Shown: positions 6,007-41,759 of the stretch, one piece after another
Layout: every line of letters begins with the position of its first letter
Numbering within the stretch: position 1 is the first letter of the stretch
Origin: Tubiluchus corallicola
Taxonomy: Eukaryota > Animalia > Priapulida
NCBI GenBank assembly: GCA_030141605.1
Contig: JAQGDQ010000165.1
Location: 310,001-374,000 of the forward strand
DNA: 64,000 nt
Direction: 5' to 3'
The notes under the pieces: model-generated
What the model was told of the DNA's origin: nothing
Seen by the model: only the letters and a program-made list of their open reading frames with translations
The model's database searches: none
Program-made: the position numbers and the translations under genes

Positions 6007-6034
6007 GTGCGGAGAAGAACAACATTGGCAGTTT

Positions 6035-6447
6035 AAGACTAGTTTATGTTAAACATGCTCTACCCAAGTTACACCAGGTTAACTCCACATACCTGGAACA
6101 TAAGACTAATTCTCTATTCACACTCTACCCAGATTACTCAGGTTAACTCTACATACCTCGAACACAAGACTAGTTTATGTTGCTCATACTCTACCCAAGT
6201 TACTCAGGTTAACTCTACATATCTGGAACATGAGATTAGTTTCTGTTACTCATGCTCTACCAAGATTATTCAGTTAACTCTACATACCTGGAACATAAGA
6301 CTAGTTTCTGTTACTCATACTTTACCCAGATTACTCAGGTTTATTCGACATACCTGGAACATAAGACTAATACTGCTACTCACACTCTACCCAGATTACT
6401 CAGGTTAACTCTACATACCTCGAACACAAGACTAGTTTATGTTACTC
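6035..6447. repeat. ~61-bp minisatellite, ~7 units, same family as the CYP intron-1 arrays
   Basis: Unit ctctacccagattactcaggttaactctacatacctggaacataagactagtttctgttactca. Confidence 0.9.
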
Positions 6448-7149: not shown

Positions 7150-7720
7150 TCTTATATAATAAGATGCAGTACTGGTGATTTGAAAAACCTGTTTTGCCCG
7201 TTTTTTCGCGAAACTCACACTCCTTATTTCTAGAGAGCGGGAATGTACCTGGGCTCGTACCGGTGGTTGGATGGTCAGTTCAACGATGGGTGTCATAGGG
7301 CCATTTCGATTTCATGGCAGCTGACTGCTTCTCCCAAACGCCATTTTCACGAAACAAACTACCCGATTTTTTTTCGAAATCTTGACAAACCTGTAGAACA
7401 AAACGTCGTTTGGTACAGGAAGATTTGTAGTTCTTTGGAAAGAGGGATTGTGCTGCTCGACGATGTGTATCACTTAGTATGCCTCCACCAGGAGGAACGG
7501 CCACAAGTTAACTGACGTTCCATTCCGGTAGATTCTTCCTTGGAAGCTTCAGTGACGCTTGCGTTGTTCTGATGCCATCTCATTGCACTCTTCTTATTAT
7601 CGGGAACATGCGATATCTAACGTTTAAAATGCAAGGATAGTAAATTAACACTATGTGAGATGTTCGCGCATTGTTGATTATGTAAGTGAATTTGCGAGCA
7701 AAATCTTTTGCGGGACCATG
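7150..7720 (+). mobile_element. Old diverged copy of the non-autonomous Helitron
   Basis: Shares the blocks gttcaacgatgggtgtcatagg and cgattttttttcgaaat, and the terminal hairpin gcaaaatcttttgcggg, with the units at 12095-15190. Confidence 0.6.
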
Positions 7721-8663
7721 GCATTAACTATCTTGTAGTCAAAATTATTACTTTTCTTTTGATGAGCTCACAACTATTCAATATTATCTTGCACTATTGT
7801 AATTCTAAACGCTTCTTCTATTTCTGTTTCTCTCAAAATTCGAAATTAGCATCAACACATTTGCACAAAATCACCGTGTAGTTACACACTTTTACCTGAA
7901 GGGATTTTTTGTTTATTTATTATGATACATTTGATCAAACCTGTATATTTTAAGTTTAAACCATCGTAACAGCTGCACACAAGCCGACTGGTCCCCATTT
8001 TCTACAAATTGTGGAACATTTATAAATATCTTAAAGCTAAAATGAAAAATAATAATAATATGCAAAAACTAACGTTAGTGTTGTCACAAAATTATAAGTT
8101 GTTGCCTTTAAGATTACAGTCTGATCAGTGACGATTATTGTGATACGTGCATTTACTACACCCAATAACAACAGATTTTATTTATGACATAATAATGGAA
8201 GGTGTACATATGAATAGTTATGAATACGAAGCTATCATGATACTGAACCAGGCGCTAAGTTGCACGTCTTTAACCGACCTGAGTGTCAGGCCAGTCCAAC
8301 AGATTTACATGCACTTCATCCCAAGCTAAACATAAATTTAAGGCTAAAATAAAATATTTTACGTGACGAATTTACCAGGCTCATTCATACCAATGACAGT
8401 AATAAAAAAAACATGAAATTTATTTATGTACACGTAGTGCAAGTTTTAGCGAGGAACAAGGCAGAAGGAGTAAACAAATTACAACGCCAAATTCAGAGCG
8501 TAAACCAAATACAGAATCATGCACATAAGTTTTAACTAACAATTATAATTACTTCAATAATAACACAACAAAAGTATTGAACTTCTGTTGCTGATGATCT
8601 CTACTGACGTCATTGCTTATTTTAAGCTTGCAAGTATGATTGAAAATATGATTTTATTTTGTT

Positions 8664-11600
8664 CTATCGCAGAGTTACTTTCATTTTATAAGCCTTTGGC
8701 GAACAAGTAAAGCCAACCACGGGCTCCAAGTCCAGTTTGGTGTCGCCATCTGGCAACTGTACATTGAAATGTTGAAGTATGCTAGTGAAGTACAGGAAAA
8801 TCTCCATACGTGCCAACGATTCTCCCAAACAAACGCGACGACCTATAAAACCAGCAAACAAAACTGGAATTACGTTCAAATAATTGGCTAAAATTATTTA
8901 TCTTAGGCTAGGCCTAAAGACTATACACAGCATAAAATTATATAGAATAAATTCTATTAGCTGCTGCATTTCTTTGTTTTTACATACCTACTGAAAACGG
9001 CATTAAGTTTTCGTTTTTGACAAATTGCCCATTTTGATCCAAATGGCGTTCTGGTCGAAATTCATACGGTTCTGGAAACTGTTCAGAATCGAGCAGTACT
9101 CCAGTAAGGTTGAGCACAATTGGTGTGGAAGCCGGTATCGTGTATCCATTAAATACACACGTCTCAGAAGTAAGATGCGGTGCTGCTATTGGAGCGATGT
9201 TACCTGTGCAATAAGACAAAGACTGGTATTACAGGTTTGGTTACAAAGTCACTGGAATTAATTACAGTTTTAAGAAACTTAGGAGTGGAAAGATTTTATT
9301 ACAGTTGATTTAAAGAAGTGCGAAACGTGTAACAGTTCATGCATTTTTGTAAAGGAACTAGAATCATGCTTTTTTTTACCAAACTTCCATGTAAGACATT
9401 TTTATAGTTATTTATATTCCCTTTAGAATGCAATCATGACAGCTTTTATCATTTTAACAATGTGTCACTCTCAATACTGATTATACAAGCTTCCCTAGAG
9501 TAGCAAGTTTATCAACAGCAGTTATTGAATTTGCATTTAGTAAATTTGACACAAATGGCAATGTCTTCAAAGTATGTGAGTAACGCATCATGTAATTACG
9601 TATCCAAACTATTTCAGAAATTGAAGAAAGCACTTGACATTCTTGGCATTTTTATAAAGCTTTTTTATTATCATAAAGTAGTTTCTGGTTCGGCAAAATG
9701 TGAGGATTTTGTAACAACAATGATAATGGTGGACAGGTGTGGTTGACGATGACAACAATGAAGACGACGATGATGACTATGATGACGAGGATGATGATGA
9801 TAATGATGGCAATGGGGATGGTAAATGGTGATCTACTCTGCTGCTTGATTGTCGAATTCTACTGATGGGACAATCAATTCTTGATAAAATCGAACACTAG
9901 TATAAAAATTTACACCTGTCCAACCTTTTCTCTCTCTCCATTTTCAAAATCTAAACACCTGAAAAAGTGTAGAACGTTGGCAATGGATTACCAAGACAGG
10001 AAGTATTCCTAAAATATCAAAATTTTGGAATTGAAATTCGCTGACTTTCAGGCACTAAAGAAAAACAGGAATTATGAATTTGGTAAATTACGGAATTTAT
10101 GTTACCTTGGTTCATATAATTTGCAAAATTTATCCCATTAAAAGGTTTGACTGCTACACAGTGCTCTTACCTAGTCTTAGCGTTTCTGTTATACAGGCCT
10201 CTACATAGGGCATATTGGAGCGGTCGCTGCAACACGGCATGCGGCTTCTTCCGACGACATCCTCAATCTCTTGCTGGGCCCTCTTCATCACTTCCGGATG
10301 CTTCATCATGAAGAGAAATGCCCAGCGTAAAGTTGTGGCTGTTGTTTCAGTTCCAGCGAAGAATAAGTCGGCGACGACTGCACTCAACTCTAATTCTAGT
10401 AAATTCATAATTGCGTTGGTAAGTGAGGCAACGACCACAGCAAATATTTTATATATTATTAAAGTATTCTAAAGAGTATTTGAACACTATAAATTTCATA
10501 ACATTAATTTGATCAATCAAAATAATGAATTATTTGTATTATAATAAATATCATAACATTTTTATCAAGCATCACAACTATTCTACAAGAACTAACCGTT
10601 GAATGTTGTATCTTTAACACCCTGGGCCTGCAGTTGTTGCATGTGACTTAAGTAGGCATCTATAAAATCTCTGGTATTTTCAGGATCGTAAGAGTCGATG
10701 TGTTCATTAGTGACTTTCACTATAAAGTCAAACAGCAGAGATTGATTCTTCACAAAACTGTCATAGCTGAAACAACAAAAAGAAACAAATGAGAAGCTTA
10801 CGACGGAAAATTAATTATAAAATCACTGGCTCCTTCATCACTGCCATGACCTGCTGCTTTACCACCACAGACCAGTGTTGATGGTACAACAATAAGGTGT
10901 AACAGAAACTGTTGTTTCGCCACAACTAACAGTCTAAGGCATCTTTTTTGTAAGCAGAAGAACCCTGGTTTAAATCCAAGTTGTATTCCAACTATTTCAC
11001 GTTTCAGTCTTCAAAGAAGCAGTCAATAGAAGGAATACAAGAAGAGCTAAACCAAGTTTCCTTTACAAATTTTGTACAAGGGAAAAAGTTAATTCTCATC
11101 AAAAAATTTGCCCTTGCATAAAATAACTTTAGCTGATTAACATCAGAGTAATAAGGCCAAATTTATATTCGTCCTAAATATTTTTCTTAGGCTGCCTTGC
11201 AGAATGTTTCTCTTAAGAATTCAGGTTAAATTAAACGTATTGGAAAGAAATATCAGTTTGCAAATCAAAACTAACACAAGTCACCTCTGTCGAATAACTG
11301 GGAGAAATCGGGTCCATGGGAAGATCTCTATGACACCTTGAAGCAAAGTGTTAGAGGAGTCTTCGCTGATACATTTCATTAGCAGCTTGAAATCTTCATT
11401 AGTGTAATCGTAAGTCCTGCCAAGTACTATGGAACAAATTACATTTGAAACGCTATTATTCATCAAAATGTGCACGTTAAAAGGTTGTCCATCTTTCTGT
11501 TTGAGTTCGTTCAAGAAACGAGCTATTTCTTCTTTCACCTTTCCTTCCAAGCTAACTTTTCCCATACCAAATTCTCTGAGTGCAGTTAAAGCGAATTTTC

Positions 11601-14600
11601 TCTGTTCCTTCCACACCCTGCCTTCTGACATCGCCAGACCTTAAAAAGTCGAAAGTTAAAATCATTAAACTATAAAAGTACAGAGCAAATGATTAAAATG
11701 CCTAAAGACTAAGACAGTTCAACACCTGCAGCAAATAAAACTGATTAATGTTTGGTTTTATTTTGTAATATCGCTAACAAGTTCAGGCGTGTGACTGCAT
11801 GTTACTCGCAGGAAGTAGGATGGTTAGACGACACAGAACCCTGCATTGCTGTCTATAAGATTTATTACACCTAAAACTTAGTATGTACTTTTTTGAATTT
11901 CATAAAATAGCGCCAAGAAAGAAAAAATCAAAACTTTAAATAATATATCAAATATGTGCCAACACAGCGCGGGCCTAACAAATATGCACTACGTATTGGG
12001 CTTACACACTTGTATATGCATACAAAAAAGTAAAAGATCAAACAAGATGATACTAACAAGCCTCTGATATAATGTTGGCACGATATTTCTATTATCTATC
12101 TATACTCTTATATTAATATTCTTGGGATATATATATAACATTCAAGGCTACAGCTTCGACGAGGGCACCATTTGTGGCGATCTATACATCAAACGAAAGG
12201 TCTAGATCTAGTGTCGTCTCATTGGGGGCTTATTTTTCGAATGGGGCCCACCGCGAGGAACGGGGGGAAAAAAACCTCCAAAAATGGCCATTTTTTGCAC
12301 AAGTTATACGGCTGAGATGTAGAGAACGGGAATGGGCTGAGGGTGGTGCTGGGTATGGATAGATAGCCCGTTCAGCGATGGGTGTCATAGGCCTATTTAG
12401 AATTCGTGAGAGGGCCACGGGGTCCCGCAACGGGCATTTTCCCGGACCCAACTCGCGATTTTTTCGAAATTTTGGCCAAACAGCATGCGGCAAAAACGTT
12501 CTAGCGGCGAATGGTGGGACTCTCGGAAGGAAATATACGGTTCTTTAGAAAGAGGAAGAATGGGGCTATTCGATGATGTAAGATATATGTTAGGACAGGT
12601 TCACCAAGAGGAGTACCGACGAGTTAATTAGATGTGCTATTTTTCGCAATTTTCGCTTGGAAAAGTGCTGACGCAATGCCATTGTTGTGACGTCATCCAT
12701 TGTACTCTGCATATAACTTTAATTCAGTAAACCCTGCCTGCTGTACTCTGTCTATAACTTTAATTCAGTAAAAAGCTGCTACAGGGTTTGCGTTAGATAA
12801 ACAAACAGTAGGCTAGATGTTATGGGCTGTGTGTTTTATAAATGAGGACTGTGTAGGATGTTCGTGTGTTATTTATTATACGTGGTTTTTTATGCAAAAT
12901 CTTTTGCGGGGCCTTTGCTAGTCTATTATATTAATACTCTTGGTATATATATTTATATATGAGATTCGAGGCTACAGCTTCGACGATGGCACCATTTGAG
13001 GCGATCTATACATCAAACGAAAGGTCTCGATCTAGTGTCGTGCCACTGATGGTTTATTTTTCGAATCGGGCCCACTGGGAGGAACGGGGGGCGAAAAACC
13101 TCGAAAAATGGCCATTCTTCGGCCGTTTTTTACAAAAAATTGCAAAAGTTATACGGCTGAGATGTAGAGAACGGGAACGGGCCGAGGGTGGTGCTGGGTA
13201 TGGATAGATAGCTCGTTCAGCGATGGGTGTCACAGGCCTATTTAGAATTCGCGAGAGGACCACGGCGTCCCGTAACGGGCGTTTTCCCGGACCCAGCTCG
13301 CGATTTTTTCGAAATTTTGACCAAACAGCCTGCGGGAAAAACGTTCTAGCGGCGTCTGGTGGGACTCTCGGAAGGAGTTATACGGCTCATCAGAAAGAGG
13401 AAGAACGGGGCTATACGATGATGTGGGCTACATTTTAGGGCAGGTCCACCGAGAGGAGTAGCGACGAGTTAATTACATGTTCTATTTTCGGCAATTTTCA
13501 CTTAGAAAACTGCTGACGCAATGCCATTGTTGTGACGTCATCCATTATTGCTTATAGCTTTAATTCAGCAAAAAGCTGCTACAGGCAACAAACAGTAGGC
13601 AGGATGTTACGGGCTTTGTGTTATAAATGAGGACTTGGTAGGATGTTCGCGTATTATTGATTATACGTGTATTTATACGCAAAATTTTTTGCGGGGCCTT
13701 TGCTAGTCTATTATATTAATTTTGCTGGTATCTTAATATATATATTTATATATAAGATTCGAGGCTACAACTCTGACAAGGGCACCATTTGCGGCGATCT
13801 ATACATCAAACGAAAGGTCTCGATTTAGTGTCGTCTCATTGATGGTTTATTTTTCGAATGGGGCCCACCACGAGGAACGGGGGGCGAAAAACCTCCAAAA
13901 ATGGCCATTTTTCGGCCGTTTTTTGCAAAAGTTATACGGCTGAGATGTGGAGAACGGGAATGAGCCGTGGGTGGTGCTGGCTATGGATAGATAGCCCGTT
14001 CAGCGGTGGGTGTCGGTGTCATAGGCATATTTAGAATTCGCGAGAGGGCCACGGGGTCCCGCAACGGGCGTTTTCCCAGACCCAACTCGCGATTTTTTCG
14101 AAATTTTGATCAAACAGCCTGCGGGAAAAACGTTCTAGCGGCGCCTGGTGGGACTCTCGGAAGGAGATATACAGCTCATCAGAAAGAGAAAGAACAGGGC
14201 TACACGATGATGTGGGCTATATTTTACGGCAGGTCCACTGAGAGGAGTACTGGCGAGTTAATTACATGTTCTATTTTCGGCAATTTTCGCTTAGAAACTG
14301 CTGACGAAATGCATTTGTTGTGACGTCATCCATTGTACTCTGTCTATAATTTTAATTCAGTAAACGCTGCGACAGGCTTTGCGTTAGCTAAACAAACAGT
14401 AGGCATGATGTTAAGGGCTTTGTATTATAAATGAGGACTAGGAAGAATGTTCGCGTATTATTGATTACATGTGTGTTTATACGCAAAATCTTTTGCGGGG
14501 CCTTTGCTAGTCTATTATATTAATATTCTTGGTATGGGCTTAATATATTTATAAATAAATATATATATATATATATATATAAGATTCGAGGCTATAGCTT

Positions 14601-17600
14601 CGACGAGGGCACCATTTGTGGCGATCTATACATCAAACGAAAGGTCTCGATCTGTGTCGTCTCATTGGGGGTTTATTTTTGAAATCGGGCCCACCGCGAG
14701 AAAGGGGGGGGCGAAAAACCTCCAAAAATGACCTTTTTTCGGCCGTTTTTTGTAAAAGTTATACGGCTGAGATGCGGAGGACAGGAATGGGCCGAGGGTG
14801 GTGCTGGCTATGGATAGATAGCCCGTTCAGCGATGGGTGTAGTAGGCATATTTAGAATTCCCGAGAGGGCCACGGCGTCCCGCAATGGGAATTTGCCCGG
14901 ACCCAAGTCGCAATTTTTTCGAAATTTTGACCAAACAGCATGCGGAAAAAATGTTCGCCTGGTGAGACTCTCAGAAGGAGATATACGGCTCTTTAGAAAG
15001 AAGAACAGGGCTACACGATGATGTGGGCTATATGTTAGGACAGGTCCACCGAGAGGAGTACCGACGAGTTAATTAGATGTTCTATTTTCGGCAATTTTCG
15101 CTTAGAAAACTGCTGATGCATGCCATTGTTCTGACGTCATCCATTATTGCTTATAGCTTTAATTCAGCAAAAAGCTGCCTGCTGGCTTTGCGTCGAGAGA
15201 GAAAATAAAATAAGTTTGCATTAAGTATAATATTTTGAAAACCAGCAATAGTATTTTATTATTTGATTGAATATTAACCACTAAACGGTTAAAGCTAAGT
15301 TTTATTTGACATATGCAATGTGTATATTATTGTTATGAAGGAAACAAAAATAAAAATATTGTTTGAATTTATGTTTAAAATTAAATTTTAATAATCAGGT
15401 CAAGTTGATCATAGTGCAAAATCAGAATTTTCTTTCGGATAAATTTTGTGGCCCTGAAAAGGGCCAGTTGGTTATTTTAGATACTTTGTCACAGCTTTGG
15501 TGCGCTCACTGACAGCGTGCTAGGATAGTTCCCCAGAAAGGAGGAGGCGTAATGTGTTTGGATTCCTCAGTTGAAGAAATTGTAAACGCATCTACAATTG
15601 TTATGTATGGTTGTCCGTCGTCTGTTGTATGGTTGTTGTCTGTATCTGTTTCTGTTTCTGTGTTGTTGATGTATAATTTGCTGTTGTTCTAATTGTTGCT
15701 GTATGTGTGAAATTCGGTTAAGTTGTGTTTGTACGTGTGCCATGAATTGTGCTATCATTTGTTGCTGCTGTTGTTGTTGTGGTTGTGGATCTGGTTCAAG
15801 TTGTGGTTGTGGTTGTTGTTGTTGTCTATGTTCGTCGTCCGGTCTTCCTTGTATTGCCAAGCCTTCCAGTCTCTGTAACATAGAGATATTTTTGTTAAAA
15901 AAACAAAGATTTTTCAAACAACATGGAAAATTATTCTTTATTTCATTTAGATTCATTTTAAGCCCAACATGTTATTCATAAACTTTAGACTTAAATCAGC
16001 AATTTTAGATATTTCCCTTTGATAATAAATGCTAATGCGTAGGCATAGTGATTGTTAAAATATTTATTACCTTCGTAATATTGATTTTGCCTCCGAACAC
16101 CAAAGCCAAAGTTGCAAATACCAGGATTAAACGCAGCATCTTGACCTTTTTTGAGGTAGCGGTGAACCCGTGCCAATTACGACGCCAGAGTAATGTGGTG
16201 CACGGTTAATTCTGTTTTCTATCCGTCGAAGTGTATAAAACACGACGCTGCTAAGTGCCAAGTTATTAATTGAGTCATAGAATTTTGCAATGTTTTGACA
16301 ATGAATAATAATCGGCTAATTATAATAATAATAAAAGCAAAGGCCCCGCAAAAGATTTTGCGTATAAATACACGTGTAACTATTATTATGGGGAATATTA
16401 GTGAACTATTAGTAGACCTATAAAGTTATTATTTTCACAGCAATTATTAAATTAACATTAAAGGAGATTAAATTTTACTGCCATGTATCCACATTTGAGA
16501 TACCAGTGTCACCTTTGACTTCACATGTGTCTACATTTGACTTACCAAAAACGCTTAAGATTTCTTGAAAACTATTGTTAACACATTTGAACTACCTAAG
16601 TCTACATTTGAGTTAACACAGGTCTACATTTGACATGTAAAACCTATAGTAAGTTTACCTCAAGCTGAGTAAATGTCGCTAAAACATATGATATGAGAAA
16701 CATTCATTTGATAAAACATATGCAAATCCTACTTAACAATTGTATTTTCATACCTTTTACATTATATCATGTCATATCATACGATATTTTTACATTTTGT
16801 TACACCTTAATTCAACGTTTATTTTTTTCTCAGTATGTTCTGCAATATCACTCAAACGTAAGAAAGCCTCATAATGAACGCACGAAGTCAATATTTGCAA
16901 ACAGATTCTTCTTCCGCTATGAAAACAATATTTCGCAAATTAATTAGATAATATTTGCTAATAGTTCACAAAATTTAAGCCAAAGTGGTAATGTACAATT
17001 ATTACAATTATTTGTTATCGACATCACGGTATCTAATGGTTAACGTATAATCTATTATATCAATAATAATAATAATAATAATATTATAATATAAGAATAA
17101 TTATAATAATATAATTAATATAAATTAATATAAATAAATATAATATTAATATAAATTTATAAATATAATTTTTGACATTCGTATATACGGTATCGGAAAT
17201 GATTACTGCTGTCGCGCGACAGATGGCAGCACAATGTCATAATCAACAAGCAAAGAATAAATTACTGACACAAGATTGCAGAAACTCTTGAGATTTCATT
17301 AAAGACAGACATAACCTACTTCTTACAGAAAGTTTACAAATGAGAACTAATACATCTAATGCCCTTTATACTACATTATGTTACAAAGTGTTTCTAAATT
17401 TCATTGCATTTATCTAAACTAGGCCGAAATAAACAAATTTCTTTGGCACTTAAAAATACAATTAATGTACCCGATATTCAATACACCCAACAATTGCTAC
17501 AATAACTGACAAATGAATCCTTGCGTAAAAATACAAGCTGTTAATACTCTGCAGGGATTGGTGAACATATTATATATATTATTATTATTATAATTATATA

Positions 17601-20600
17601 TATATATACATTAATCAGTTGGTTTTTTTACATTGAATAAGATATTAAAAATGCTGTGACATGGCCTTCTAATGTCGTCTAACTCAAAATATGCGTGCTA
17701 ATGTGGACGAAAGGGAATTTGTCTCTTGGCAAATGATGCTTGGTGATGGTAAACATCCAAGAGAGGTGCCTGATCAGCCTAATGCTGTCAAAATACCAAG
17801 AGCGTGTCTGGCTGTATCAGACATTATTACAGAAATTTTTGGACATGAAATACAAAATTCTGAAATGCTAAAAGATAATGTGATTTTAACATCGAAAAAC
17901 GATGTTTGCTTACGAATTAACGAAAACGTATTAACCAGACTTCATGGCATTGCACGCACTTACTTTAGTGCTGATACTATTGCCGAGAATGATCCGGAAC
18001 AGGCAGAAACATATCCAACAGACTATATCAACAAACTGACACCATCAGGTCTACCGCCTCATAAGCTGACGCTAAAGGTGGGTGCAATTGTGATGTTATT
18101 GAGAAATATAGATATACGGCAAGGTTTATGTAATTGTTGCAGATTAATCGTTAGAGAGATGCACGAAAATTTTTTAATTTCTGACAATATTGAAAATTCT
18201 GGCAGAGGTAAGAGGGTGTTTATTCCTCGGGTAACTCTGTCACTGTCAGACACCCAGTTGCCATTTAAAATGACTCGGCGTCAGTTCCCTTGCCGTTTGA
18301 GCTTTGCATTGGCTATTAACAAGAGTCAAGGTCAAACTTTTCAAAAGGTTGGTATCTACTTGCCGAGGCCTGTTTTTACTCATGGACAAATGTATGTAGC
18401 CGTGAGTAGAGTCAGACGCTTTGCAGATCTCAAAATAATGATCGAGGAAACTGCGCAACAAGGTAACTTGTTGAAAAATAGAGATGATGTATTCACGCAA
18501 AACGTAGTATATACAGAAGTACTGTAAAATGCAAAGAAATGCTTACAAACATGTACTAATGGAGCCAAAAGATTGGTATGTACAGTAGTAAAGAGTTTAG
18601 AGCTACATGTTGTTGCCAATCAAGTAAGACAGTTGGTTAGCATTAAAATGTTAGCAAACGATGTGCAAAATGGCGTGATAGAAGTAAAAGGCAAGAAACA
18701 GCTAATTGTGCATTCAGGGGTAGAAATAGCAAGTTTTACAAAAAAACTGATGCAAAACGAATCAGAAAATAAGTCGTCAAATGTTACATTAATGATACTG
18801 CCGTCTTTCTTTAGATATTTTGATTAATAAGAGTGGCCAAAAAGTAGACACTTAAAGATTTGAAACAGCTACATTAAAATTTTGTTCATTTTGAGCTATT
18901 TCGTCCCCGCCCCGAGTGGCTCTGAAAAAAGTGGTTTCTTTATTAAAAGATACTATAATTGTGCATTCATGTATGAGCGTGTATTATTGACCATTCCCTG
19001 GCAAAAAAGCAATTGTTTGAAAAAGAGCACTTCATATTTTGCAACCCTATTCAAATTTCTGTATATTCTTTAATAGTAATATTCTCCATCTTTCTGTCTG
19101 ATGGAGTACATATGTGGCAAGAAAAAATAAATAAATTCAGCAAAAAAATGCTGTGCCACCTCTCCCTGTCAGAAATAAGTGCTGATCTTGTAACAGCTGT
19201 TGCTGTGTTTCATTTTTCTTTAACAATGTCTCTGCAAGTAAAGTGGGCTTCTCGTGAGAAGATACAGGTGACTGGATCTGTTTCTGGTAGGGTGGGTTGA
19301 TTGGCGAGAAGAAAATAAAGCAATTGACGACCAGCACTCTCTGTCAGACAGGTAAGCACAAATCTTGTACCGCTTCAAATCGGGAAACTTTACACCCTCC
19401 CAAAATTTCCGAAACCCTTTTTTTCAATATTTTCCAAATCCACCAAAAATGTGACACACAAACCTGAAAATTTAAAAAACCAAATTAAAACAGAATTCTT
19501 CTGACTTTTCAAATGATGAACAGACGAAGATCAACATAAATATAACATTTTTAAATGAGAATTTTTGAATGTTTGATGTTTTGCTAGCTTGTACACTCGT
19601 TTTTCTTGTTGCTCATGGTCATTGAAAAGCATTTCCAAATTGTACACGTTATTCAAGTGAGTTTCTCATGGGAAATCCGGCAAATTGGATCTCCTCTCTG
19701 ATAGGGTTTGTTTTTTTCGGTGTGAAGAAGAACGTAACTGCTGTGTCACCATGCTCTGTCAGAGGTAAATGCTAATACCTGCATTTTGAGAAGCATTATA
19801 CTCGCCCAGCGTTTCTGAGTGTACGTGTTTCTAAAGGGCAAAATGTTTTATTATTGCGAAACCAGAAACAGATAGGCATAAAAATGTACAGTATATAGCT
19901 TCTCATGGAAAGGGCTAGGGGACATGATCTATCTCTGGTAGGGCATGTTGTTGGCGTAAAAGAATTATCAGCAGTTGCATGCCAGCACTCTCTGTCCAAG
20001 GTATGCGCAAATTCAGCATCGCTTCACATCAAGAAACTTGTTACTCTCCAAACATTTTAAAAAATGTGTGTTTTGGAAAAAAAATGCAAGTTTACAAAAA
20101 ATCAAATAAACTGGTTTAAAAATTTAAGTCAAATTAAACTAGAATCCAGACCGTTCAAATAATTGATAGACGATTTTTGAACCTATGGTATTCTGTCAAT
20201 CTGATTTTTAACAACTTGAAGTTTTAGGTCTTAATTATAGTTAATTTAAAAAATATGTCTTCTATTGAAGTGAGTTTCTTATGCGAAGGCCTGGATATGT
20301 CTCTGATAGGGTGTGTGTTTTTTTGGCAAGAAGAAAATTAAAGTAACTGCCGTGGCCACTGCTCTTTGTCAGAGGTAAGCGCAAATCCATGACCGCTTTA
20401 TATTGAGAAGCTTTACAGCCTCCCGGAATTTCTGCACAATTTAAGAAAAGAAAAAACTGTTTGGTCACGAAACAGTTGCCAAATGGATTTAAAAGTTGTA
20501 ACAAATGCAAACTAATGCAAATAATGCATTTTGCTAGCTTGATCACTAAGCTTTTGTTGTGGATCATAGTCTACAAAATCTGTTAAAAACTATGCCTGCT

Positions 20601-23600
20601 GCTGAAGTTAGCTTCTCGTGGGAAGGTCCCGGAAATGGATCTATCTCTGATGGGGTGCGTACGATGGCGAGCAGAATAGTGAAAAAAAATATCACTAGCA
20701 GTTGCTAGCCAGCACTCTTTGTCAGAATGTAAGCGCAAGTCCCGGTACCGCTTCACATCTAGAAACTTCACATCCTTCAAAAATCTATAAAAACATGTGT
20801 TTTGTTAAAAAATATTTTGAATGCCCACAATAATGCAACAAATATGCCTGACAATCAAAAAAATCAGATTAAAGTCGACTCATGAATGTTCAAATAACGG
20901 GACAGATGAAAATTAACGTAATACATTGCATTTTTGCCAACTTCTTCACTGAACTGCTGGTGTTGCTCACAGTCAAATGAAAATCATGTCTAAAACATAC
21001 ATACCATTGAAGTGAGTTTCTCGTGGGAAGGCTTGGAAAACTGGGATCGCATTCTGATGGGGTGTGTTAATTGGCGGGTAGAAAAATTTTGCATTGCTCT
21101 GTGCCACACTTCTCTGTCAGAGGTAAGCACTAATCCTGCACCACTTCACGCTGAGAAGCTTTACAGCCTCCCAGAACGTGTGTCTTTTTAAAAAAAGGAA
21201 AAAACTGCATGGTCGCAAAACAGGTGGAAATAGATTTAAAAGATGTGTATCAAAATGCAAACTAATGCGAGAAATGCATTTTCCTAGCTTGATCACTAAG
21301 CTTTTGTTGTGCACCATAGTCTACAAAGTCTGTCAAAAACTATGCCTGCTGCTGACGTTAGCTTCTTGTGAGAAGATCCTGGAAATGGATCTATCTCTGA
21401 TAGGGTTCATTAGATGGCGGAAAGAATAGTAAAAAAAAAATAAATGGATGGAGCAATGCCAGTCACCACTCTCAGTCAGAAGTATGCGCTAATCCTGCAC
21501 CGCTTCACGTTGAGAAGATTCACACTCTCTCAAAATTTCTAAATACACGTTTTTAAAAAAAAAATTACAAGGTCAAAAAACATGCTACAAATAGAAATAA
21601 AAGGTACAAAAGCCAAACAAAAATAGAGTCCTAATTGTTGATGTGATGGTCAGGCAAAACTAATTGTAGCTATTTGTAGCCTGGTCATTGAGCTGTTGGT
21701 GTTGTTCATGATCAGTTGAAAAGTACAGCTAAAAATGCCCCTGCTGCGAAAGTGAACTTCTCATAGGGAGGCATGGAGAAACTTGTAATTGGGTGTGTGG
21801 CGAGAAGAATATTTCTTGGAATATTTCCATGTATCCAATTGCTTGCCACCGCTCTCTGTCAGAGTCAAGCGCAAATCCTGTACCACTTCACCATGAGTGG
21901 CTTCATGCCTACCCGGAATTTCTAAAAAAACGTATTTAAAAAAACAAAAATAAAACCATTCGACAAATTGGCTGGAAAGGTTTAAACAGTCAAATGAAAA
22001 ATGGTGACGTAACTTTTCAAATGATGGGCATATAAAAAGGAATTGAACAATTGCATCTTGCCCGACTGATCTTTCTGCTCTTTGAATTGTTAATAGGCAG
22101 TAAATAGCCTCTCATGGGAATGTCTAGGAACTGGATCTGTCTCTGATTTGAGAAAAACGGTAAGTGAGCAGGAGTCAGACGGGGTAAACCTGCCTAGATC
22201 TAAATGCATATTTTGTTGACTGCATTTAGATCTAGCACATTGCAAGCCGTGACAAAAGGTGAGCACTCCCTCTGGCATTATAAGCACTGTTTCAGAAAAT
22301 AACGTTTCGAACAATAATTAATGGAGTTCTTATAGGAAAGCTTTTTCAGAAAGAGGAGGAACTGGACTACATGATGACGAGGGTAACTCAGAAACACTAC
22401 GACCACAGGTGACAAGATTAGAAATAATTGTACGTTTCACTTCAGGTTCCTTACTTACAAAGCTGCATGGTGTGGCTGATATGGTGTGAGTGGTGTGGAA
22501 AGTGTGGATAATGCGGTGGGGTGCTATGGTGTGGGTGGTGTAGTGTAGGTTGTGTGTTCATTTATGCGCAAAATTCTTTTGCGGGGTTTCGCTAGTGTAT
22601 ATATTAATATTCTTGGTATGTTATATATATATATATATATATATAAGAGTCAAGGCTACTCGGAAGGAGATATGGGGCTCTTCAGAAAGAGGAAGAACGG
22701 GGCTACACAGTGATGTGGGCTATGTTTTAGGGCAGGTCCACCGAGAGGAGTACTGGCGAGTTAATTACATGTTCTATTTTCGGCAATTTCGCTTGGAAAA
22801 CTGCTGACGCATGCCATTGTTCTGACGTCATCCATTGTACTCTGCCCATAATCTTATAGCTTTAATTCAGCAAAAAGCTGCTACAGGCTTTGCGTTAGGT
22901 AAGTAGGCAGGATGTTCGCGTATTTTTGAGCACTATGTAGGATGTTCGCGTATTATTGATTACATGTGTACTTATATGCAAAATCTTTTGCGGGGCCTTT
23001 GCTAGTAAATGAATATTTCTATATGAACATTACATAACTTTATTAACCGTTTTCTTCTACCTATTAATTTTTTATTTAACTACTAAAATTATTAGGGATA
23101 ACTAACCATACTGTAGCAGCTAGAGACTAGTTTCTCCTACCCTGACTATACCCACATTACTCAGGTTTAGTCTACGTGTCTGGAATACGAGACTAGCTTC
23201 TTTTAGCTAGACTCTACCCAGATTATTCAGTTAACTCTACATACCAGGAACATGACTAGTTTCTGTTACTCATACTCTACCCAGATTACTCAGGTTAACT
23301 CTACATACCTGGAACATAAGACTAGTTTCTGTTACTCATGCTCTACACAGATTACTCAGGTTAACTCTACATACCTGGAACATAAGCCTAGTTTCTGTTA
23401 CTCAGAATCTACCCAGATTACTCGGGTTAACTCTACATACCTGGAACATAAGACTAGTTTCTGTTACTCATGCTCTACCCAGATTACTCAGGTTAACTCT
23501 ACATACCTGGAACATAAGACTAGTTTCTGTTACTCATGCTCTACCCAGATTACTCAGGTTAACTCTACATACCTGGAACATAAGACTAGTTTATGTTACT

Positions 23601-24547
23601 TATGCTCTACCTAAGTTACTCAGGTTAACTCGATATACCTGGAACATCAGACTAATTCTCTATTCACACTCTACCTAGATTACTCAGGTTAACTCTACAT
23701 ACCTCGAACACAAGACTAGTTTATGTTACTCATACTCTACCCAAGTTACTCAGGTTAACTCTACATATCTGGAACATAAGATTAGTTTCTGTTACTCATG
23801 CTCTACCAAGATTATTCAGTTAACTCTACATATCTGGAACATGAGATTAGTTTCTGTTACTCATACTCTACCCAGATTATTCAGGTTAACTCGACATACC
23901 TGGAACATAAGACTAGTTTCTGTTATTCATGCTGTACCCAGATTACTCAGGTTAACTCTGCATACTTGGAACATAAGACTAGTTTCTGCTACTCATGCTC
24001 TACCCAGATTATTCAGGTTAACTCTGCATACCTCGAGCACAAGACTAGTTTCCGTTACTCACACTCTACCCAGATTACTCAGGGTAACTCTGCATACCTG
24101 GAACGCAAGACTGATTTCTGTTACTCACACTCTACCCAGATTATTCGGTTAACTCTACATACCTGGAACATGCTTAACGTGTCCGAATCCAAGTTTTTGT
24201 AAAAGGTCGTCAACGAAGAAGGTTCGTGGTCGCCCCGAAAAATTCTCTCCTTGTTTTAGGAAAGCTTCGCGTGCTAGCTCGGCATCATTAATTACTATGT
24301 GCAGTTTACTTCCTAAGTAGACACTGAATATTTTCCCGTAAGTCTTAGACAGCTCTGTGAAAAATTCTCCTATATGATTTCCCGCGGACAGTATGGAACC
24401 AATGTAGGGCCATCCAAGAGGGCCAGGTGGTATATTCGAAGGTCTCTTGAGGTACTGCCACAATTTTAGCGCAAGAAGGACACACACGCTAGTTGCTACA
24501 CATTTCAAAATTGTACATCCAAATAAACACGTGTGTTCGGCAGACAT
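8664..24547 (-). CDS. Cytochrome P450, clan 2 (CYP2-like), copy A. Exons 24547-24163, 11639-11285, 10766-10597, 10395-10171, 9203-8988, 8842-8664
   Basis: N-terminal membrane anchor plus PPGP, WKEQR, I-helix [16 protein letters not shown] and heme motif PFSVGRRVCLG. All introns are GT-AG with consistent phases (1,2,1,1,1). Confidence 0.93.
9745..9830. repeat. Imperfect (GAT/GAC)n microsatellite in a CYP intron; paralogous copy at ~27995-28095
   Basis: Direct reading of the sequence. Confidence 0.8.
12095..15193 (+). mobile_element. Four head-to-tail non-autonomous Helitron units: 12095-12921, 12922-13706, 13707-14510 and 14511-~15193 (truncated)
   Basis: ~800-bp repeats joined by exact ...ggggcctttgCTAG|TCtattatattaat junctions. 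Confidence 0.9.
15450..15465 (-). promoter_or_regulatory. Histone-type 3' stem-loop with candidate histone downstream element (~15428-15438)
   Basis: The minus strand reads aaccaact-GGCCCTTTTCAGGGCC-acaaaa...ccGAAAGAAAA, matching the metazoan SLBP-binding stem-loop consensus and its flanks. Confidence 0.8.
15567..16139 (-). CDS. Predicted two-exon 124-aa Gln-rich protein with a signal-peptide-like N-terminus (exons 16139-16071, 15872-15567)
   Basis: ATG...AAG|gtaata and ttacag|AGA join in phase 0 to give [44 protein letters not shown]...[18 protein letters not shown]. No family recognised. Confidence 0.55.
16337..16381 (-). mobile_element. Inverted Helitron 3'-terminal fragment lacking the final TAG
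   Basis: The reverse complement reads tatacgcaaaatcttttgcggggcctttgc, then tttt instead of tag. Confidence 0.75.
17691..18527 (+). pseudogene. C-terminal PIF1-like helicase portion of a Helitron RepHel protein (5'-truncated)
   Basis: Motifs [56 protein letters not shown] and terminal NVVYTEVL. The Rep domain and Walker A are absent, and the usual LCNGTRL reads LCNCCRL. Confidence 0.9.
19095..22150 (+). repeat. Array of 9-10 diverged ~150-170-nt self-complementary (long hairpin) units separated by AT-rich spacers
   Basis: Recurrent blocks GTGAGYTTCTC..GGAAG..GGATCT.TCTCTGATRGGG..TGGC..GCCA..CTCTGTCAGAGGTAAGC..CTTCAC..GAGAAGCTTTAC start at ~19240, 19657, 19896, 20268, 20606, 21010, 21356 and 21750, with partial units at ~19095 and ~22100. 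Confidence 0.85.
22597..23005 (+). mobile_element. Internally deleted Helitron unit supplying the final 3' CTAG, preceded by a variant terminus (gcaaaattcttttgcggggtttcgCTAG, ~22568-22595)
   Basis: Sequence shared with the 3' half of the 12095-15190 units. Confidence 0.8.
23125..24172. repeat. ~61-bp minisatellite (~17 units) at the start of CYP-A intron 1
   Basis: Tandem units. The last unit overlaps the exon-1 donor CCAG|GTATGT on the minus strand. Confidence 0.92.
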
Positions 24548-26251
24548 CGTTGCACGTAACGAATTCAACCTTTCGAAGTTTAATTTATAAAAAAGCGTAG
24601 GTTATTTTCGTATACTAGAAATTCTACTTTTCGTGCTGCACGTTAGCGCCGCCTAACATTCAAAACGAAAGCACGTTCAGAAATATGTGTTTTTTCAACG
24701 ACCACGACGCCTTTCAAAGGGGAGCATCTTGAAAATCAAGTTAGCTTATTTTATAGCTGCCTTCCCCGGGAACAACTTGGCGAATTTTTTTAGCAGTACG
24801 TTGTCTAATTAATGAGTAATTAACTTTTTTGTATCTCACGTGAAACGCCATGGAGCTGCACTTGTGCCTCTCCCGGTGAAAACATTGAACTAGCGAAGCT
24901 CAGGCTGATGATGCAACAGAGGGTACACGCAGCCTGTTGTGATACTGTCGTTCACGCCTGGGCGAAAAATAAAGCTGGTATTACTATATTACAGCATTTG
25001 ACCTTGGTTTGGATAGGTAGTCAGCTGATAGAAGCGGTTTTCATCAAAAGCTATATTTTACTACCGTAGAAAGTTATAGGTCTACTACAGCATATTGTGA
25101 AAATTCTTGTGGCATTAATTGAAAACGTCGTCAGCAATGCAAGCTGCAAAAGTCTGGGCCTCGGTAACAAGTTTTTTTCTTGTAAAACAAGTCCGATATA
25201 GTAACTTCATTCTGCTAGAAGAATTAATGAATTTGTAAACTGAGAAACTCACTGAAGCATAACTTTAATATACTATAAAATATTAGCTGTACACTTATTG
25301 ATTAAACATATATGAACATTTTTAACTTTGTCGTGTTTCAGTTATTTGAATCAGCAAGTTATTTCTGTTTCTCTCATCATTCGAAATATCAACATCAACA
25401 CCTTTGCACAAAATCACCGTGTAGTTACACGCTTTTATCTCAAGAGACTTTTGTTTATTTATTATGATACATTTTATCAAAACTGTATATTTTAAATCTA
25501 AACCATCGTAACAGCTGTACATAAGCCGGCTGGTCGCCATTTTCTATTAATTATGGGAAATTTATAAATATTTTAAAATTAAAATAAAAAATAATAATAT
25601 GCAAAAACAAATATTAGTGTTGTCACAAAATTATAAGTTGTTACCTTTAAGGTTACAGTGTGATTATTGTGATACCTGCATGTACTATACCCAATAACAA
25701 CAGATATTTTTTTTATTTATGACATAATAATGGAAGGTGTACATATGAATACCTATGAATACGAAGTTATTATGATACTGAAGCAGGCGCCAAGTTGCAC
25801 GTCTTTAACCGACCTGAGTGTCAGGCCAGACCAACAGATTTACATGCACTTCATCCCAGGCTAAACATAAATTTAAGGCTAAAATAAAATCACCTACAGT
25901 AGCTTATTAAATGACAAGTTCATATCATCAAATTAAGTTGAAATATTAGCTGAATTTACCAGGCTCATTCATATCAATGACATGAATAAAATAACATGAA
26001 ATTTATTTATAAACATGTAGTGCAAGTTTTAGCCAGGAACAAGGCAGAACGAGTAAATAAATTACAACGCCAAATTCAGAGCGTAAACCAAATACAGAAT
26101 CATGCACATAAGTTTTAATTAACAATTATAATTGCTTCAATAATAACAAAACAAAAGTATTGACCTTCTGTTGCTGATGACCTCTACTGACGTCATTGCT
26201 TATTTTAAGCTTGCAAGTATGATCGAAAATATGATTTTATTTTGTTTTATC

Positions 26252-26667
26252 CAGGGGCGGAACTAGGGGGAGCGAGGGGGGAGGACGCCCCCTGTCAAAA
26301 TTTGTGCCCCCCTGCAAAATCGGACAAATAATTTTTTTTGCAGTGAAAATTGCAGTTCACATGTAATCATTTTCAATATGAATTAGAATTGGGTAAAAAA
26401 ATGTTTGGTAGGGTCAGTGTATTATTTTCTTAAAACTTGTGCGTGATAAATTTCTGTAAATAACAATTTAGTTAGAGGCACATTAATAACGTTAGGTTAA
26501 CTGTGAGTTAATTTTCTCGTTAGTGCTCTGTCCGCTACGCCGTCCTACACACATGCTAATTACAGGCCTGCATGCAGTATGAAAGGGGTTTAATATTGGC
26601 TTAACAATTATTTAACCACTTCAGATACCTCGCCCCCCCCTGCTTGCCACATCTAGTTCCGGCCCTG
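26252..26667. mobile_element. hAT-type MITE inserted just after the CYP-B stop codon
   Basis: TIRs CAGGGGCGGAACTAG / CTAGTTCCGGCCCTG and 8-bp TSD GTTTTATC (26244-26251, 26668-26675). Absent from CYP-A. Confidence 0.88.
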
Positions 26668-26670
26668 GTT

Positions 26671-29600
26671 TTATCGCAGAGTTACTTTCATTTTATAAGC
26701 CTTTGGCGAACTAGTAAAGCCAACCACAGGCTCCAAGTCCAGTTTGGTGTCGCCATCTGGCAACTGTACATTGAAATGTTGAAGTATGCTAGTGAAGTAC
26801 AGGAAAATCTCTATACGTGCCAACGATTCTCCTAAACAAACGCGACGACCTATAAAACCAGCAAACAAAACTGGAATTACGTTCAAATAATTGGCTAAAA
26901 TTATGAAATCCTGTTTGCAGCAGGCAGTTACGCTGTTGTACAACACGCCCATTTAATAGCTACAAAACATTTAAATATTACAGGCCTACATTTCTGGAAC
27001 ATTTATACTGAAAAATGGGCTTGTTACATAGGTAAGACATTACAGAAGTTATAATTACAACATTAATATGAATAGCACGCAATGTCTATAGTGAATACTG
27101 CAAGTAGAATTACAGCATGCTAAACTTGTAATTAACCGAACTGCAATATAATTATACCTACATAGGACAGGCCTAAAGACTATACACAGCATAAAATTAT
27201 ATAGAATGAAATCTATTAGCTGCTGCATTTCTTTGTTTTTACATACCTACTGAAAACGGCATTAAGTTTTCGTTTTTAACAAATTGCCCATTTTGATCCA
27301 AATGGCGTTCTGGTCGAAATTCATACGGTTCTGGAAACTGTTCAGAATCGAGCAGTACTCCAGTAAGGTTGAGAACAATTGGTGTGGAAGCTGGTATCGT
27401 GTATCCATTAAATACACACGTCTCAGAAGTAAGATGCGGTAATGCTATTGGAGCGATGTTACCTGTGCAATAAGATAAAGACTGATATTACAGGTTTGGT
27501 CACAAAGTCACTGGAATTAATTACAGTTTTAAGAAATTTAGGTGTAAAGACTTTATTACAGTTGATTTAAAGAAGTGTGAAACGTGAAACAGTTCATGCA
27601 TTTTTGTAAAGGAACTAGAATCATGTTTTTTTTACCAAACTTCCACGTAAGACATTTTTATAGTTATTTATATTCCGTTTAGAATGCAGACATTACAGCT
27701 TTTACCATTTTAACAATGTGTCACTCTCAATACTGATTATACAAGCTGCCCTAGAGTAGCAAGTTTATCAACAGCAGTTATTGAATTTGCATTTAGTAAA
27801 TTTGTCACAAATGGCAATGTCTTCAAAGTATTTGAGTAACGCATAATGTAATTACGTATCCAAACTATTTCAGAAATTGAAGAAAGCACTTCCTTTAACT
27901 TAACATTTTTGGCATTTTTATGAAACTTTTTTATTATCATAAAGTAGTTTCTGATTCAGCAAAATTTGAGGATTTTGTAACAACAATTATAACAACGATG
28001 ATAATGGTGGACAGGTGTGGTTGACGATGATGACAATGACGATGACGACGACGATGGTGATGATGATGGCAATGGGAATGGTAAATGGTGATAAAGGCGA
28101 TCTACTCTGCAGTTTGATTGTCGAATTTTACTGATGGGGCAATCAATTCTTGATAAAATCGAATACCACTACAAAAATTTACACCTGTCCATCCTTTTCT
28201 CTCTCTCCATTGTCAAAATCTGAACACCTGAAAAAGCGTAGAACGTTGGCAATGGTTTACCAAGACAGGAAATATTCCTAAAATATCAAAATTTTGGAAT
28301 TGAAATTCGCTGACTTTCGAACACTGAAGAAAAACTGGAATTTTGAATTTGGTAAATTAAGGAATTTATGCTACCTTGGTTCACACTTTTTGCAAAATTT
28401 ATCCCATTAAAAGGTTTGACTGCTACAAACTACCTAGTCTTTGCGTTTCTGCTATACACGCCTCTACATAGGGCATATTGGAGCGGTCGCTGCAACACGG
28501 CATGTGGCTTCTTCCGACGACATCCTCAATCTCTTGCTGGGCCCTCTTCATCACTTCCGGATGCTTCATCATGAAGAGAAATGCCCAGCGTAAAGTTGTG
28601 GCCATTGTTTCAGTTCCAGTGGAAAATAAGTCGACGACGACTGCACTCAACTCTAATTCTAGTAAATTCATAATTGCGTTGGTGATTGAGGCAACGATCA
28701 CAGTGAATATTATATATATATTTAAGTATTCTAAAGAGTATTTGAATACTATAAATTGCTCATAACATTAACTTGATCAATCAAAATAAGGAATTACTTG
28801 TATTGCAATAAATATCACAATATTATTATCAGCCATCAAAACTATTTAAAAAACTAACCGTTGAATATTGTATCTTTAACACCCTGGGCCTGCAGCTGTT
28901 GCATGTGGCTTAAGTAGGCGTCTATAAAATCCCTGGTATTTTCAGGATCATAAGAGTCGATGTGTTCATTAGTGACTTTCACTATAAAGTCAAACAGCAG
29001 AGATTGATTCTTCACAAAACTGTCATAGCTGAAACGACAAAAAGAAACAAATGAGAAGCTTACGACGAAAAGTTATGCCATGACTTGCTGTTTTACCACC
29101 ACAGACCAGTGTTGGTGGTAAAACAATAAGGTGTAACAGAAATTGTTGTTTCGCCACGACTACCAACTACATTCCAACTACTGAGCAGTCAATGACGGCA
29201 CAACCCACAAATGATTAAATTTTGATACTAACCTTAAAAAACAGACCGGATTTGAATCAGGGACCTTCTGCTTACAAAGTAGATGTCTTACACCACTCGG
29301 CCACATCTCCCACCGGTCAAAGCAGTCCAAAGTTGGCCAACCTAATTCAACATTTCTAATGTTAGATCGTTCATATTAGAGTTAGAATAACTCCAATGTG
29401 AGCGTTCTAACATTGGAAATGTTGAACTCGGTTGGCCAACGGATGAACTTTGGACCCTTGTCCTTTGGAAATAACAGTCTAAGGCATCTTTTTTGTAAGC
29501 AGAAGATCCCTGGTTCAAATCCAAGTTGTATTCTAACTATTTCACGTTTCAGTCTTCAAAGAAGCAGTCAATAGAAGGAATGCAATAAGAGCTAAACAAA

Positions 29601-31877: not shown

Positions 31878-32079
31878 CTTTGCACGCAACGAATTCAACT
31901 TTTTGAAGTTTAATTTATAAAAAAAGCGTAGCTTATTTTCATATAATGGAAATTCTGCTTCTCGTGCTGTATTACTAGCGGCCGTATATAGTACAGTGAA
32001 TGGCAGATTGACTAAATGCATTTGTGAACCTTGGTTGGCCTTGACAAAGTTGTTTGCTATATGATTCACGCAGGGGCTA

Positions 32080-33930: not shown

Positions 33931-34383
33931 ATTCCCCCTTTCTTAAAACTGCACCTGCCCTCAGGTGCTCTGTCTCCTGTCAGCATCAGGTATGCTTACC
34001 AAACTATTGTTGAGTTTTGTTGACTGCTCCTTTAAAATTTTTTTTTTTTGTTTCTTTGCCATCCTGATATTGAAATCCAATACAGCTTATATACTTACTA
34101 AACTGAATACAGCTTTATTTACTTGTAAAATATAACGGAATTTTTATACATCCATACATATTCTTGATAGCACCATTCTAGTAAACAATATAAGTAAATA
34201 AGCAAGTATATAATACTGGAACAACCCGTTGTAGATATGCTGATATATTCCTTCAAATGATATATATATATATATAAAAGATATATAATTTTTAATCTAA
34301 TTTATCTAGGAAATATTGGAATGTATATATGAACGTAGGTTGAACGTAGGTATGAATATATATTGGAACGTAGCTGCATGGCC

Positions 34384-39870: not shown

Positions 39871-39902
39871 GACCGGGACACTGGCCCCATGCCCGGTCTC
39901 CT

Positions 39903-41668: not shown

Positions 41669-41738
41669 TTTACCAATTTTATTACAGCTTGCCGTTCTTA
41701 CTCAGTTTGAATCACAATGCCTCAAAACAAAATTCAAA

Positions 41739-41756: not shown

Positions 41757-41759
41757 AAA

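What the first reader, a model, noticed from the sequence alone, without database searches (positions are those of the whole stretch)
15425..16139. Non-histone, intron-containing Gln-rich gene ending in a perfect histone mRNA stem-loop, carried inside a Helitron
Seen: about 100 nt after the stop codon, the minus strand has AACCAACT-GGCCCTTTTCAGGGCC-ACAAA followed ~13 nt later by purine-rich GAAAGAAAA. The upstream two-exon ORF (124 aa; hydrophobic N-terminus, poly-Q/P, Arg-rich tail) shows no histone fold. Established: this 16-nt stem-loop binds SLBP and, with the U7-pairing downstream element, makes non-polyadenylated, S-phase-regulated mRNA ends. It is almost exclusive to intronless replication-dependent histone genes. 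Inference: a transposon cargo gene may use histone 3' processing for S-phase- or oocyte-coupled expression. Alternatively the stem-loop is a captured histone-gene 3' fragment.
Basis: partly seen in the sequence, partly recalled or inferred. Interest (0 to 1): 0.85.

Follow-up and report, generated by a model that had tools for sequence, protein, structure and literature searches.

The report
Helitron-captured histone H2B gene tail
The histone-message hairpin is real, but it sits at the end of a broken piece of a histone H2B gene inside a rolling-circle transposon, so it is most likely a leftover of gene capture and not a sign that the neighbouring glutamine-rich gene borrows histone RNA processing.

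Summary
The stem-loop is real (15450-15465, minus strand; Rfam RF00032, 37.8 bits). It lies in a 10.9-kb Helitron block (12095-23005, A|TC...CTAG|T) whose empty site is seen in a paralogous P450 intron. The piece keeps 22 of 30 H2B residues and has a frameshift, an internal stop and a shortened end. An intact 16-mer needs no selection at this decay (P about 0.10; Fisher p=0.19). The Gln-rich ORF has a strong signal-peptide-like exon but no homolog, and an intron is reported to block stem-loop processing (PMC3661734). Contigs show a second form that also joins the ORF's stop to the hairpin, so co-option stays open (about 15%). Decayed histone fragments in a Culex Helentron are a published precedent (PMC4067079). 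The scan had not seen this sequence, but noted non-histone genes with this hairpin on other DNA (unchecked AI notes).

The parts
15450..15465 (-). Histone mRNA 3' stem-loop (6-bp stem, 4-nt loop), identical to the commonest H2B stem-loop in the comparison set
   Evidence: Rfam RF00032 37.8 bits; same 16-mer in 28 of 65 real H2B genes; folds as a hairpin
15428..15449 (-). ACAAA (predicted cut near 15445) and purine-rich HDE-like element
   Evidence: GAAAG 13 nt after the stem; in 62 distinct real H2B genes a similar core lay 10-17 nt after the stem in 26, at 3 or 22 nt in 3, and was not found in 33. U7 pairing could not be tested.
15472..15572 (-). Decayed H2B C-terminal coding fragment (last ~30 codons before the final TSSK), with a 1-nt deletion, an internal TAG and a shortened end; its frame closes at TAA 15474-15472, 6 nt before the stem
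   Evidence: phmmer vs PDB E=1.4e-6; nhmmer 15572-15482 E=2.7e-15; codon table, and 15 nt from the Tyr codon to the stem against 38-55 nt in 62 real genes
15567..15872 (-). Predicted exon 2: Gln/Pro-rich (CAA repeats), Arg-rich tail. An intronless 104-aa version could start at ATG 15881.
   Evidence: no homolog; any frame open in 226 of 3000 dinucleotide shuffles
15873..16070 (-). Predicted 198-nt intron (GTAATA...TTACAG); part of it matches a more abundant repeat
   Evidence: many divergent contigs laid at 15872-16037
16071..16139 (-). Predicted exon 1, signal-peptide-like, 23 codons
   Evidence: The only one of 697 open ATG starts in the window that reaches its own hydrophobicity score with a basic n-region; a diverged copy aligns from 16140 into the intron
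15193..15427 (-). AT-rich downstream flank, shared by other copies; holds AATAAA at 15306 and 15260
   Evidence: a contig joint 16444->15197 links it to a Helitron 3'-terminal piece in other copies (orientation inferred)
16334..16690 (-). Very abundant non-autonomous Helitron unit; its 3' hairpin and degenerate CTAG junction lie just upstream of the ORF
12095..23005 (+). Composite Helitron block, TC...CTAG inserted at A|T without target duplication, in an intron of a minus-strand P450 gene; tandem ~800-bp units end in hairpin+CTAG at 12921, 13706, 14510, 22595, 23005
   Evidence: Empty site in the paralogous P450 intron near 30642; ends; P450 Pfam
17676..18527 (+). C-terminal ~280 aa of a Helitron Rep/helicase; no Rep or N-terminal part found in the window
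   Evidence: PF21530 E=2.3e-16; 49% identity to PF14214-bearing proteins; 46 of 46 long relatives hit only here

Best explanation
The hairpin is the native end of a histone H2B gene fragment that a Helitron most likely captured and that has since decayed, so it is probably a passive hitchhiker and not the working 3' end of the Gln-rich gene. Shown: H2B coding remnant directly before the hairpin, its lesions, the Helitron ends and empty site, and a contiguous ORF-H2B-hairpin junction in two samples from two studies. Inferred: rolling-circle end bypass or template switching copied the 3' end of a replication-dependent H2B gene (last ~30 codons, UTR, stem-loop, HDE). It placed this behind a separately acquired two-exon segment with a signal-peptide-like exon. 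Point changes, a frameshift and a deletion of at least ~23 nt then ruined the H2B part. If the chimera is transcribed and spliced, it would more likely be polyadenylated downstream (AATAAA at 15306 or 15260) than cut at the hairpin.
For: H2B match: PDB E=1.4e-6; nhmmer 15572-15482 E=2.7e-15; 22 of 30 residues kept, with frameshift and internal TAG. The 16-mer is the commonest H2B stem-loop, 28 of 65 genes. Decay at near-invariant H2B columns is 7 of 53 (one synonymous), so an untouched 16-mer has P about 0.10 (CI 0.01-0.36; Fisher p=0.19). The 5' flank is atypical: T at -1 in 2 of 62 real genes. Helitron anatomy and empty site. All 8 codon changes computed from the variants displayed are non-synonymous (80% expected without selection; 50 further variants were not displayed). 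Precedent: Helentron-Cq-32A carries H4 and H1-type fragments with stops and frameshifts (PMC4067079, passages read). [quoted passage not shown]
Against: The hairpin, ACAAA and HDE-like motif are all intact while the adjacent H2B piece has several lesions. One X2 contig joins the last base of the ORF's stop codon to the same 8-nt flank and hairpin through 38 other letters (depth 114.5, only 24 nt on the short side). A diverged exon-1 copy aligns from exactly the ATG (X1 record 4, X2 record 13, same sample). Exon 1 is the most signal-peptide-like start in 64 kb. Summed contig depth is far higher on the hairpin and its flank than on the H2B piece; this is no copy number, and host histone genes would add to it.
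Confidence: 0.72

Rival explanations
1. Co-option: the captured H2B 3' end now serves as the 3' end of a Helitron-borne gene for a secreted Gln-rich peptide. The message would be cut at ~15445 by U7 snRNP, bound by SLBP and expressed in S phase or oocytes, while the H2B coding remnant decays into UTR.
For: Intact hairpin, ACAAA and purine-rich element. A second form joins the stop codon to the hairpin through a 46-nt spacer, and a diverged copy aligns from the ATG. Exon 1 is strongly signal-peptide-like; the given frame is open in 80 of 3000 shuffles.
Against: An intact hairpin is compatible with neutrality. An intron is reported to block stem-loop processing (PMC3661734). The 5' flank is atypical. 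No homolog of exon 2 was found, and the displayed variants are all non-synonymous. The second form's spacer holds a 16-nt inverted copy of exon 1, which looks like a templated repair event (read by eye).
Confidence: 0.15
2. Fusion relic: the ORF was once fused in frame to the H2B C-terminus, or the element once carried a working H2B-derived cargo gene, and the hairpin ended that gene. The present TGA would be a nonsense change of the H2B Arg codon.
For: The profile alignment puts the ORF's TGA on the Arg codon of REIQT, and the ORF frame continues as G-I-Q-T before the frameshift.
Against: The first ten aligned positions have low posterior. No H2B similarity upstream by DNA or protein profile, and the apparent TISS likeness was reached by 1259 of 2000 shuffles. 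One frame in three is shared by chance.
Confidence: 0.08
3. The hairpin matters through the host gene: it lies in sense inside an intron of the minus-strand P450 copy, and could cut part of that pre-mRNA early.
For: The P450 exons at 24601-24158 and 11640-11284 flank the block on the same strand as the hairpin, and the exons compared are open.
Against: No expression data. Histone processing is concentrated in histone locus bodies (PMC9756948, passages read). It would be a side effect and does not explain the origin.
Confidence: 0.05

Closest known systems
Helentron-Cq-32A of Culex quinquefasciatus carrying H4 and H1/H5-family fragments (Thomas et al. 2014, PMC4067079, passages read)
   Same: A rolling-circle transposon with histone gene fragments that bear premature stops, frameshifts and indels, in several genomic copies
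   Different: Here the fragment is H2B, the element has canonical Helitron ends (TC...hairpin-CTAG, A|T site), the stem-loop and HDE-like motif are kept, and a signal-peptide-like two-exon ORF lies upstream. The passages read do not mention a stem-loop.
Replication-dependent histone H2B gene 3' end (Rfam RF00032, SLBP, U7/HDE)
   Same: Identical 16-nt stem-loop, ACAAA, purine-rich element 13 nt downstream, H2B C-terminal codons directly upstream
   Different: Only ~30 codons remain, broken. The Tyr-codon-to-stem distance is 15 nt against 38-55. The 5' flank is atypical and the upstream reading frame is intron-containing and non-histone.
Helitron gene-fragment capture giving chimeric transcripts (maize, bats, silkworm; e.g. 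PMC4528327, PMC3288121, PMC4778049, seen as search listings with abstract starts only)
   Same: Pieces of unrelated genes joined inside a non-autonomous element
   Different: One of the pieces is a histone 3'-end processing signal

Membership tests
Replication-dependent histone mRNA 3' end (RF00032) | 16-nt stem-loop of conserved sequence | tested here: met
   37.8 bits against gathering 34; same 16-mer in 28 of 65 H2B genes
Replication-dependent histone mRNA 3' end (RF00032) | Purine-rich HDE about 10-17 nt after the stem | tested here: met
   GAAAG at offset 13; motif only
Replication-dependent histone mRNA 3' end (RF00032) | HDE pairs with the host U7 snRNA | not testable with these tools
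   No host genome is held
Replication-dependent histone mRNA 3' end (RF00032) | A-rich 5' flank typical of SLBP sites | tested here: inconclusive
   Window CAACT; T at -1 in 2 of 62 and C at -2 in 10 of 62 real genes
Replication-dependent histone mRNA 3' end (RF00032) | Ends an intronless histone message, non-polyadenylated in vivo | not testable with these tools
   No RNA data; the upstream ORF has a predicted intron
Functional histone H2B gene | Full ~125-aa open frame with the histone fold | tested here: not met
   Only profile positions 265-356 of 372 are matched, with frameshift and internal stop; nothing upstream
H2B pseudogene fragment | Significant H2B similarity with disabling lesions, followed by the histone 3' signal | tested here: met
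Helitron (non-autonomous, composite) | 5' TC, 3' hairpin and CTAG, insertion between A and T without target duplication | tested here: met
   12095-23005; empty site in the paralogous intron
Helitron (autonomous) | Complete Rep/helicase ORF | tested here: not met
   Only the last ~280 aa are present
Secreted peptide gene | Signal peptide, spliced and expressed, coding frame under selection | tested here: inconclusive
   Signal-like exon by a hydrophobicity scan only (SignalP not available); no homolog; displayed variants non-synonymous

The most novel reading that the evidence does not exclude
A Helitron family built a new spliced gene for a secreted Gln-rich peptide and co-opted a captured H2B 3' end as its terminator. 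This would be a non-histone, intron-containing message made by U7/SLBP processing, with the H2B coding remnant caught midway in decay while the hairpin is kept across paralogs.
Probability: 0.13. Interest if true: 0.75.

Novelty: new member of a known kind. Interest (0 to 1): 0.24.

Why it matters
As it most likely stands, this is another case of Helitron gene-fragment capture. It is also a caution for scans: a histone stem-loop after a 'non-histone' ORF should be checked for a decayed histone remnant in the UTR. It does show a route by which a complete histone 3' signal can be placed behind an unrelated reading frame. If the co-option reading were true, it would break the rule that U7/SLBP processing serves only intronless histone messages, and it would give a natural test of whether splicing and stem-loop processing can coexist.

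Tried and rejected
No host genome is held, so family copies, the host H2B source and U7 snRNA could not be examined.
Expression: no RNA holder listed. The one RNA-guess run X6 laid 1 piece, outside the gene. Neither says anything on expression.
Run X3 has little or no cover over exon 1 and its upstream; a part without cover proves nothing.
Homologs of exon 2: 0 of 37 candidates at E<=0.01 (lengths 55-177 only); 0 hits at E<=0.001 among 1.84 billion representatives for the C-terminal 63 aa; no usable Atlas hit; 0 of 3 exact look-ups; Pfam DOR E=0.074, below cut-off; PDB best E=0.1. The spliced protein was not searched as a whole.
Idea that the ORF is a remodelled H2B (YNRRR and TISS look-alikes): rejected; no profile support, and 1259 of 2000 shuffles did as well.
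The exact hairpin with its flank gave 0 matches in metagenome contigs, and the hairpin gave 0 in viral contigs. No Helitron relatives were found in viral contigs. The plasmid search gave only 4 chance hits. A protein search with the short H2B remnant returned nothing at E<=1, a limit of query length.
The 151-nt 3' region does not fold better than shuffles overall (z=-1.45).
Literature: no paper in the library held Helitron + histone H2B + gene fragment, or SLBP + non-histone mRNAs + stem-loop + U7 snRNP. Searches listed nothing on a transposon gene using a histone stem-loop (listings only). The library lacks most subscription papers, and supplements were not read.

Full report
Observation. The minus strand carries GGCCCTTTTCAGGGCC at 15465-15450, then ACAAA and a GAAAG core 13 nt after the stem. 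Rfam Histone3 scores 37.8 bits over 15424-15470 (gathering 34; E=1.9e-7) and is the only Rfam match in the window. The degenerate consensus with one mismatch allowed occurs once, against 0.04 expected from 100 shuffles. The proposed gene model works on paper: exon 1 16139-16071, a 198-nt GT..AG intron and exon 2 15872-15567 give 124 aa with 28 Gln. An intronless 104-aa ORF from ATG 15881 is also possible.

The stretch between the ORF's stop and the hairpin is histone H2B coding DNA. Read with X at stops, residues 15-41 match H2B chains in the PDB at E=1.4e-6. Of these, 65 held a full gene (50 were left out as incomplete by my filter), and 62 were distinct. 56 of the 65 hit the window by blastn at E<=1e-3, the best at 76% over 83 nt. 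A DNA profile of their coding regions hits 15572-15482 at E=2.7e-15, the only significant hit in the window. Codon by codon, 22 of 30 residues from REIQT to TKY are kept. There is a 1-nt gap at codon 6, Lys to TAG at codon 17 and five missense changes, and the first codon (Arg) falls on the ORF's TGA at the weakly aligned edge. From the Tyr codon to the stem there are 15 nt against 38-55 (median 45) in the 62 genes, so the last H2B codons and part of the UTR were likely deleted. My search pattern bounded that range at 22-58 nt. The 16-mer is the commonest stem-loop among the 65 genes (28 of 65). The simplest reading is that coding remnant, hairpin and HDE-like motif are one captured H2B 3' end.

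Is the perfect hairpin a sign of selection? Not by itself. 7 of 53 near-invariant H2B columns have changed (one synonymously), which gives P about 0.10 (CI 0.01-0.36) for 16 untouched bases, Fisher p=0.19. The 5' flank is unusual, with T at -1 in only 2 of 62 real genes. [quoted passage not shown] PMC9756948 (passages read) describes processing in histone locus bodies and polyadenylated histone transcripts that retain the stem-loop. AATAAA hexamers lie at 15306 and 15260 in AT-rich DNA.

The element. Two tandem P450 genes lie on the minus strand. In one, a 10.9-kb block from TC (12095) to CTAG (23005) sits between A and T; the paralogous intron shows the empty site without target duplication. 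The block holds tandem ~800-bp units ending in hairpin+CTAG (12921, 13706, 14510, 22595, 23005), a minus-strand unit end at 16361-16334 just upstream of the ORF, and the last ~280 aa of a Helitron Rep/helicase (PF21530; 49% to PF14214-bearing proteins; 46 of 46 long relatives hit only this piece). 'Inside a Helitron' is thus correct, and the element is non-autonomous and composite.

Other copies (contigs of four runs, X1 and X2 from one sample, X3 from another study, X6 uninformative). The exon 2-H2B-hairpin junction is contiguous in X1 (15436-15722, 0 differences), X2 (15374-15722, 2) and X3 (15449-15722, 1), so it is not an assembly artefact. A joint 16444->15197 (depth 73.5 in X1 where identical contigs have 9-11; 2182 in X2) most simply means that other copies run from the hairpin's downstream flank into a Helitron 3' terminal piece. 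The kind of joint was not displayed, and I infer its orientation from the shared letters. Summed depth is about 30 over the H2B piece and exon 1 in X1, 137-352 over the flank and 971 next to the stem. The tool warns that this is no copy number, and host histone genes would add to the last figure.

Two points favour a real gene. A diverged exon-1 copy (16 other letters, 9 gaps) aligns from 16140, the ATG, with unlike sequence upstream. One X2 contig joins the last base of the stop codon to the same 8-nt flank and hairpin through 38 other letters (24 nt on the short side). Those letters contain a 16-nt inverted copy of exon 1 (read by eye), which fits a templated repair as well as selection. Against constraint, all 8 codon changes computed from displayed variants are non-synonymous (80% expected at random; 50 variants were not displayed).

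The ORF. Exon 1 is the only one of 697 open ATG starts in the window that reaches its hydrophobicity with a basic n-region (the threshold was set by exon 1 itself). Exon 2's frame is open in 80 of 3000 shuffles, and any frame in 226. No homolog was found and there is no H2B similarity upstream of ~15572. It is plausibly a piece of a lineage-specific secreted-peptide gene, but neither splicing nor expression is shown.

Mechanism. Most likely (0.72): Helitron capture of an H2B 3' end behind a separately acquired two-exon segment, then decay, with the hairpin a hitchhiker. The H2B origin, lesions and Helitron context are shown; capture by end bypass or template switching, and non-use of the hairpin, are inferred. 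Rivals: co-option of the hairpin as the ORF's 3' end (0.15), a relic of an in-frame ORF-H2B fusion (0.08), and an effect on the host P450 pre-mRNA, in whose intron the hairpin lies in sense (0.05).

Comparison. [quoted passage not shown] This case works like that one, with H2B, a canonical Helitron and a retained 3' signal. My searches found no paper on Helitron-borne H2B fragments or on non-histone mRNAs using SLBP/U7; the library is partial. The scan's notes hold no look-alike of this sequence and nothing on histones in this genome. They do list non-histone genes with this hairpin in other genomes. These are unchecked AI notes; they did not change my odds much, and I count them as leads only.

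Verdict. Real feature, ordinary origin: new member of a known kind, interest 0.24. The co-option reading stays at about 0.13-0.15 and would merit 0.75 if shown.

Noticed in passing
window 8400-24600 and 26000-32100, minus strand: Two tandem cytochrome P450 paralogs (aligned segments 90-98% identical in DNA, exons compared are open); the first has the 10.9-kb Helitron block in an intron.
   Followed up: partly
window 32079-43546: LTR retrotransposon with a gag-like frame and a 1403-aa pol frame (RT, RNase H, integrase) on the minus strand, flanked by ~1.8-kb repeats at 95.6% identity that hold 17- and 28-bp minisatellites; a 338-bp tandem duplication lies at 40852-41532.
   Followed up: partly
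window ~46700-57800, plus strand: Exons of a VPS4-like AAA ATPase (MIT, AAA, Vps4_C domains). A 15-bp repeat at 46766-46933 lies in the same open frame just upstream of the MIT exon.
   Followed up: partly
window 19241-21950: Diverged ~370-bp tandem repeats (65-75% alike) inside the Helitron block, after the helicase piece.
   Followed up: no
window 18528-18824, plus strand: 99-codon open frame directly after the helicase stop; only a weak Pfam hit (E=0.044, below cut-off).
   Followed up: partly
window 15473/15567 and 16089-16104: A contig of run X2 replaces the 93-nt H2B remnant by 38 letters that include a 16-nt inverted copy of exon 1; origin unexplained.
   Followed up: partly
window 6034-6447, 23124-24171, 30674-31501: 66-bp minisatellite arrays, two of them in the matching intron of the two P450 copies.
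   Followed up: no
window 7231-7731 and 54385-54767: Further partial copies of the same Helitron unit.
   Followed up: no
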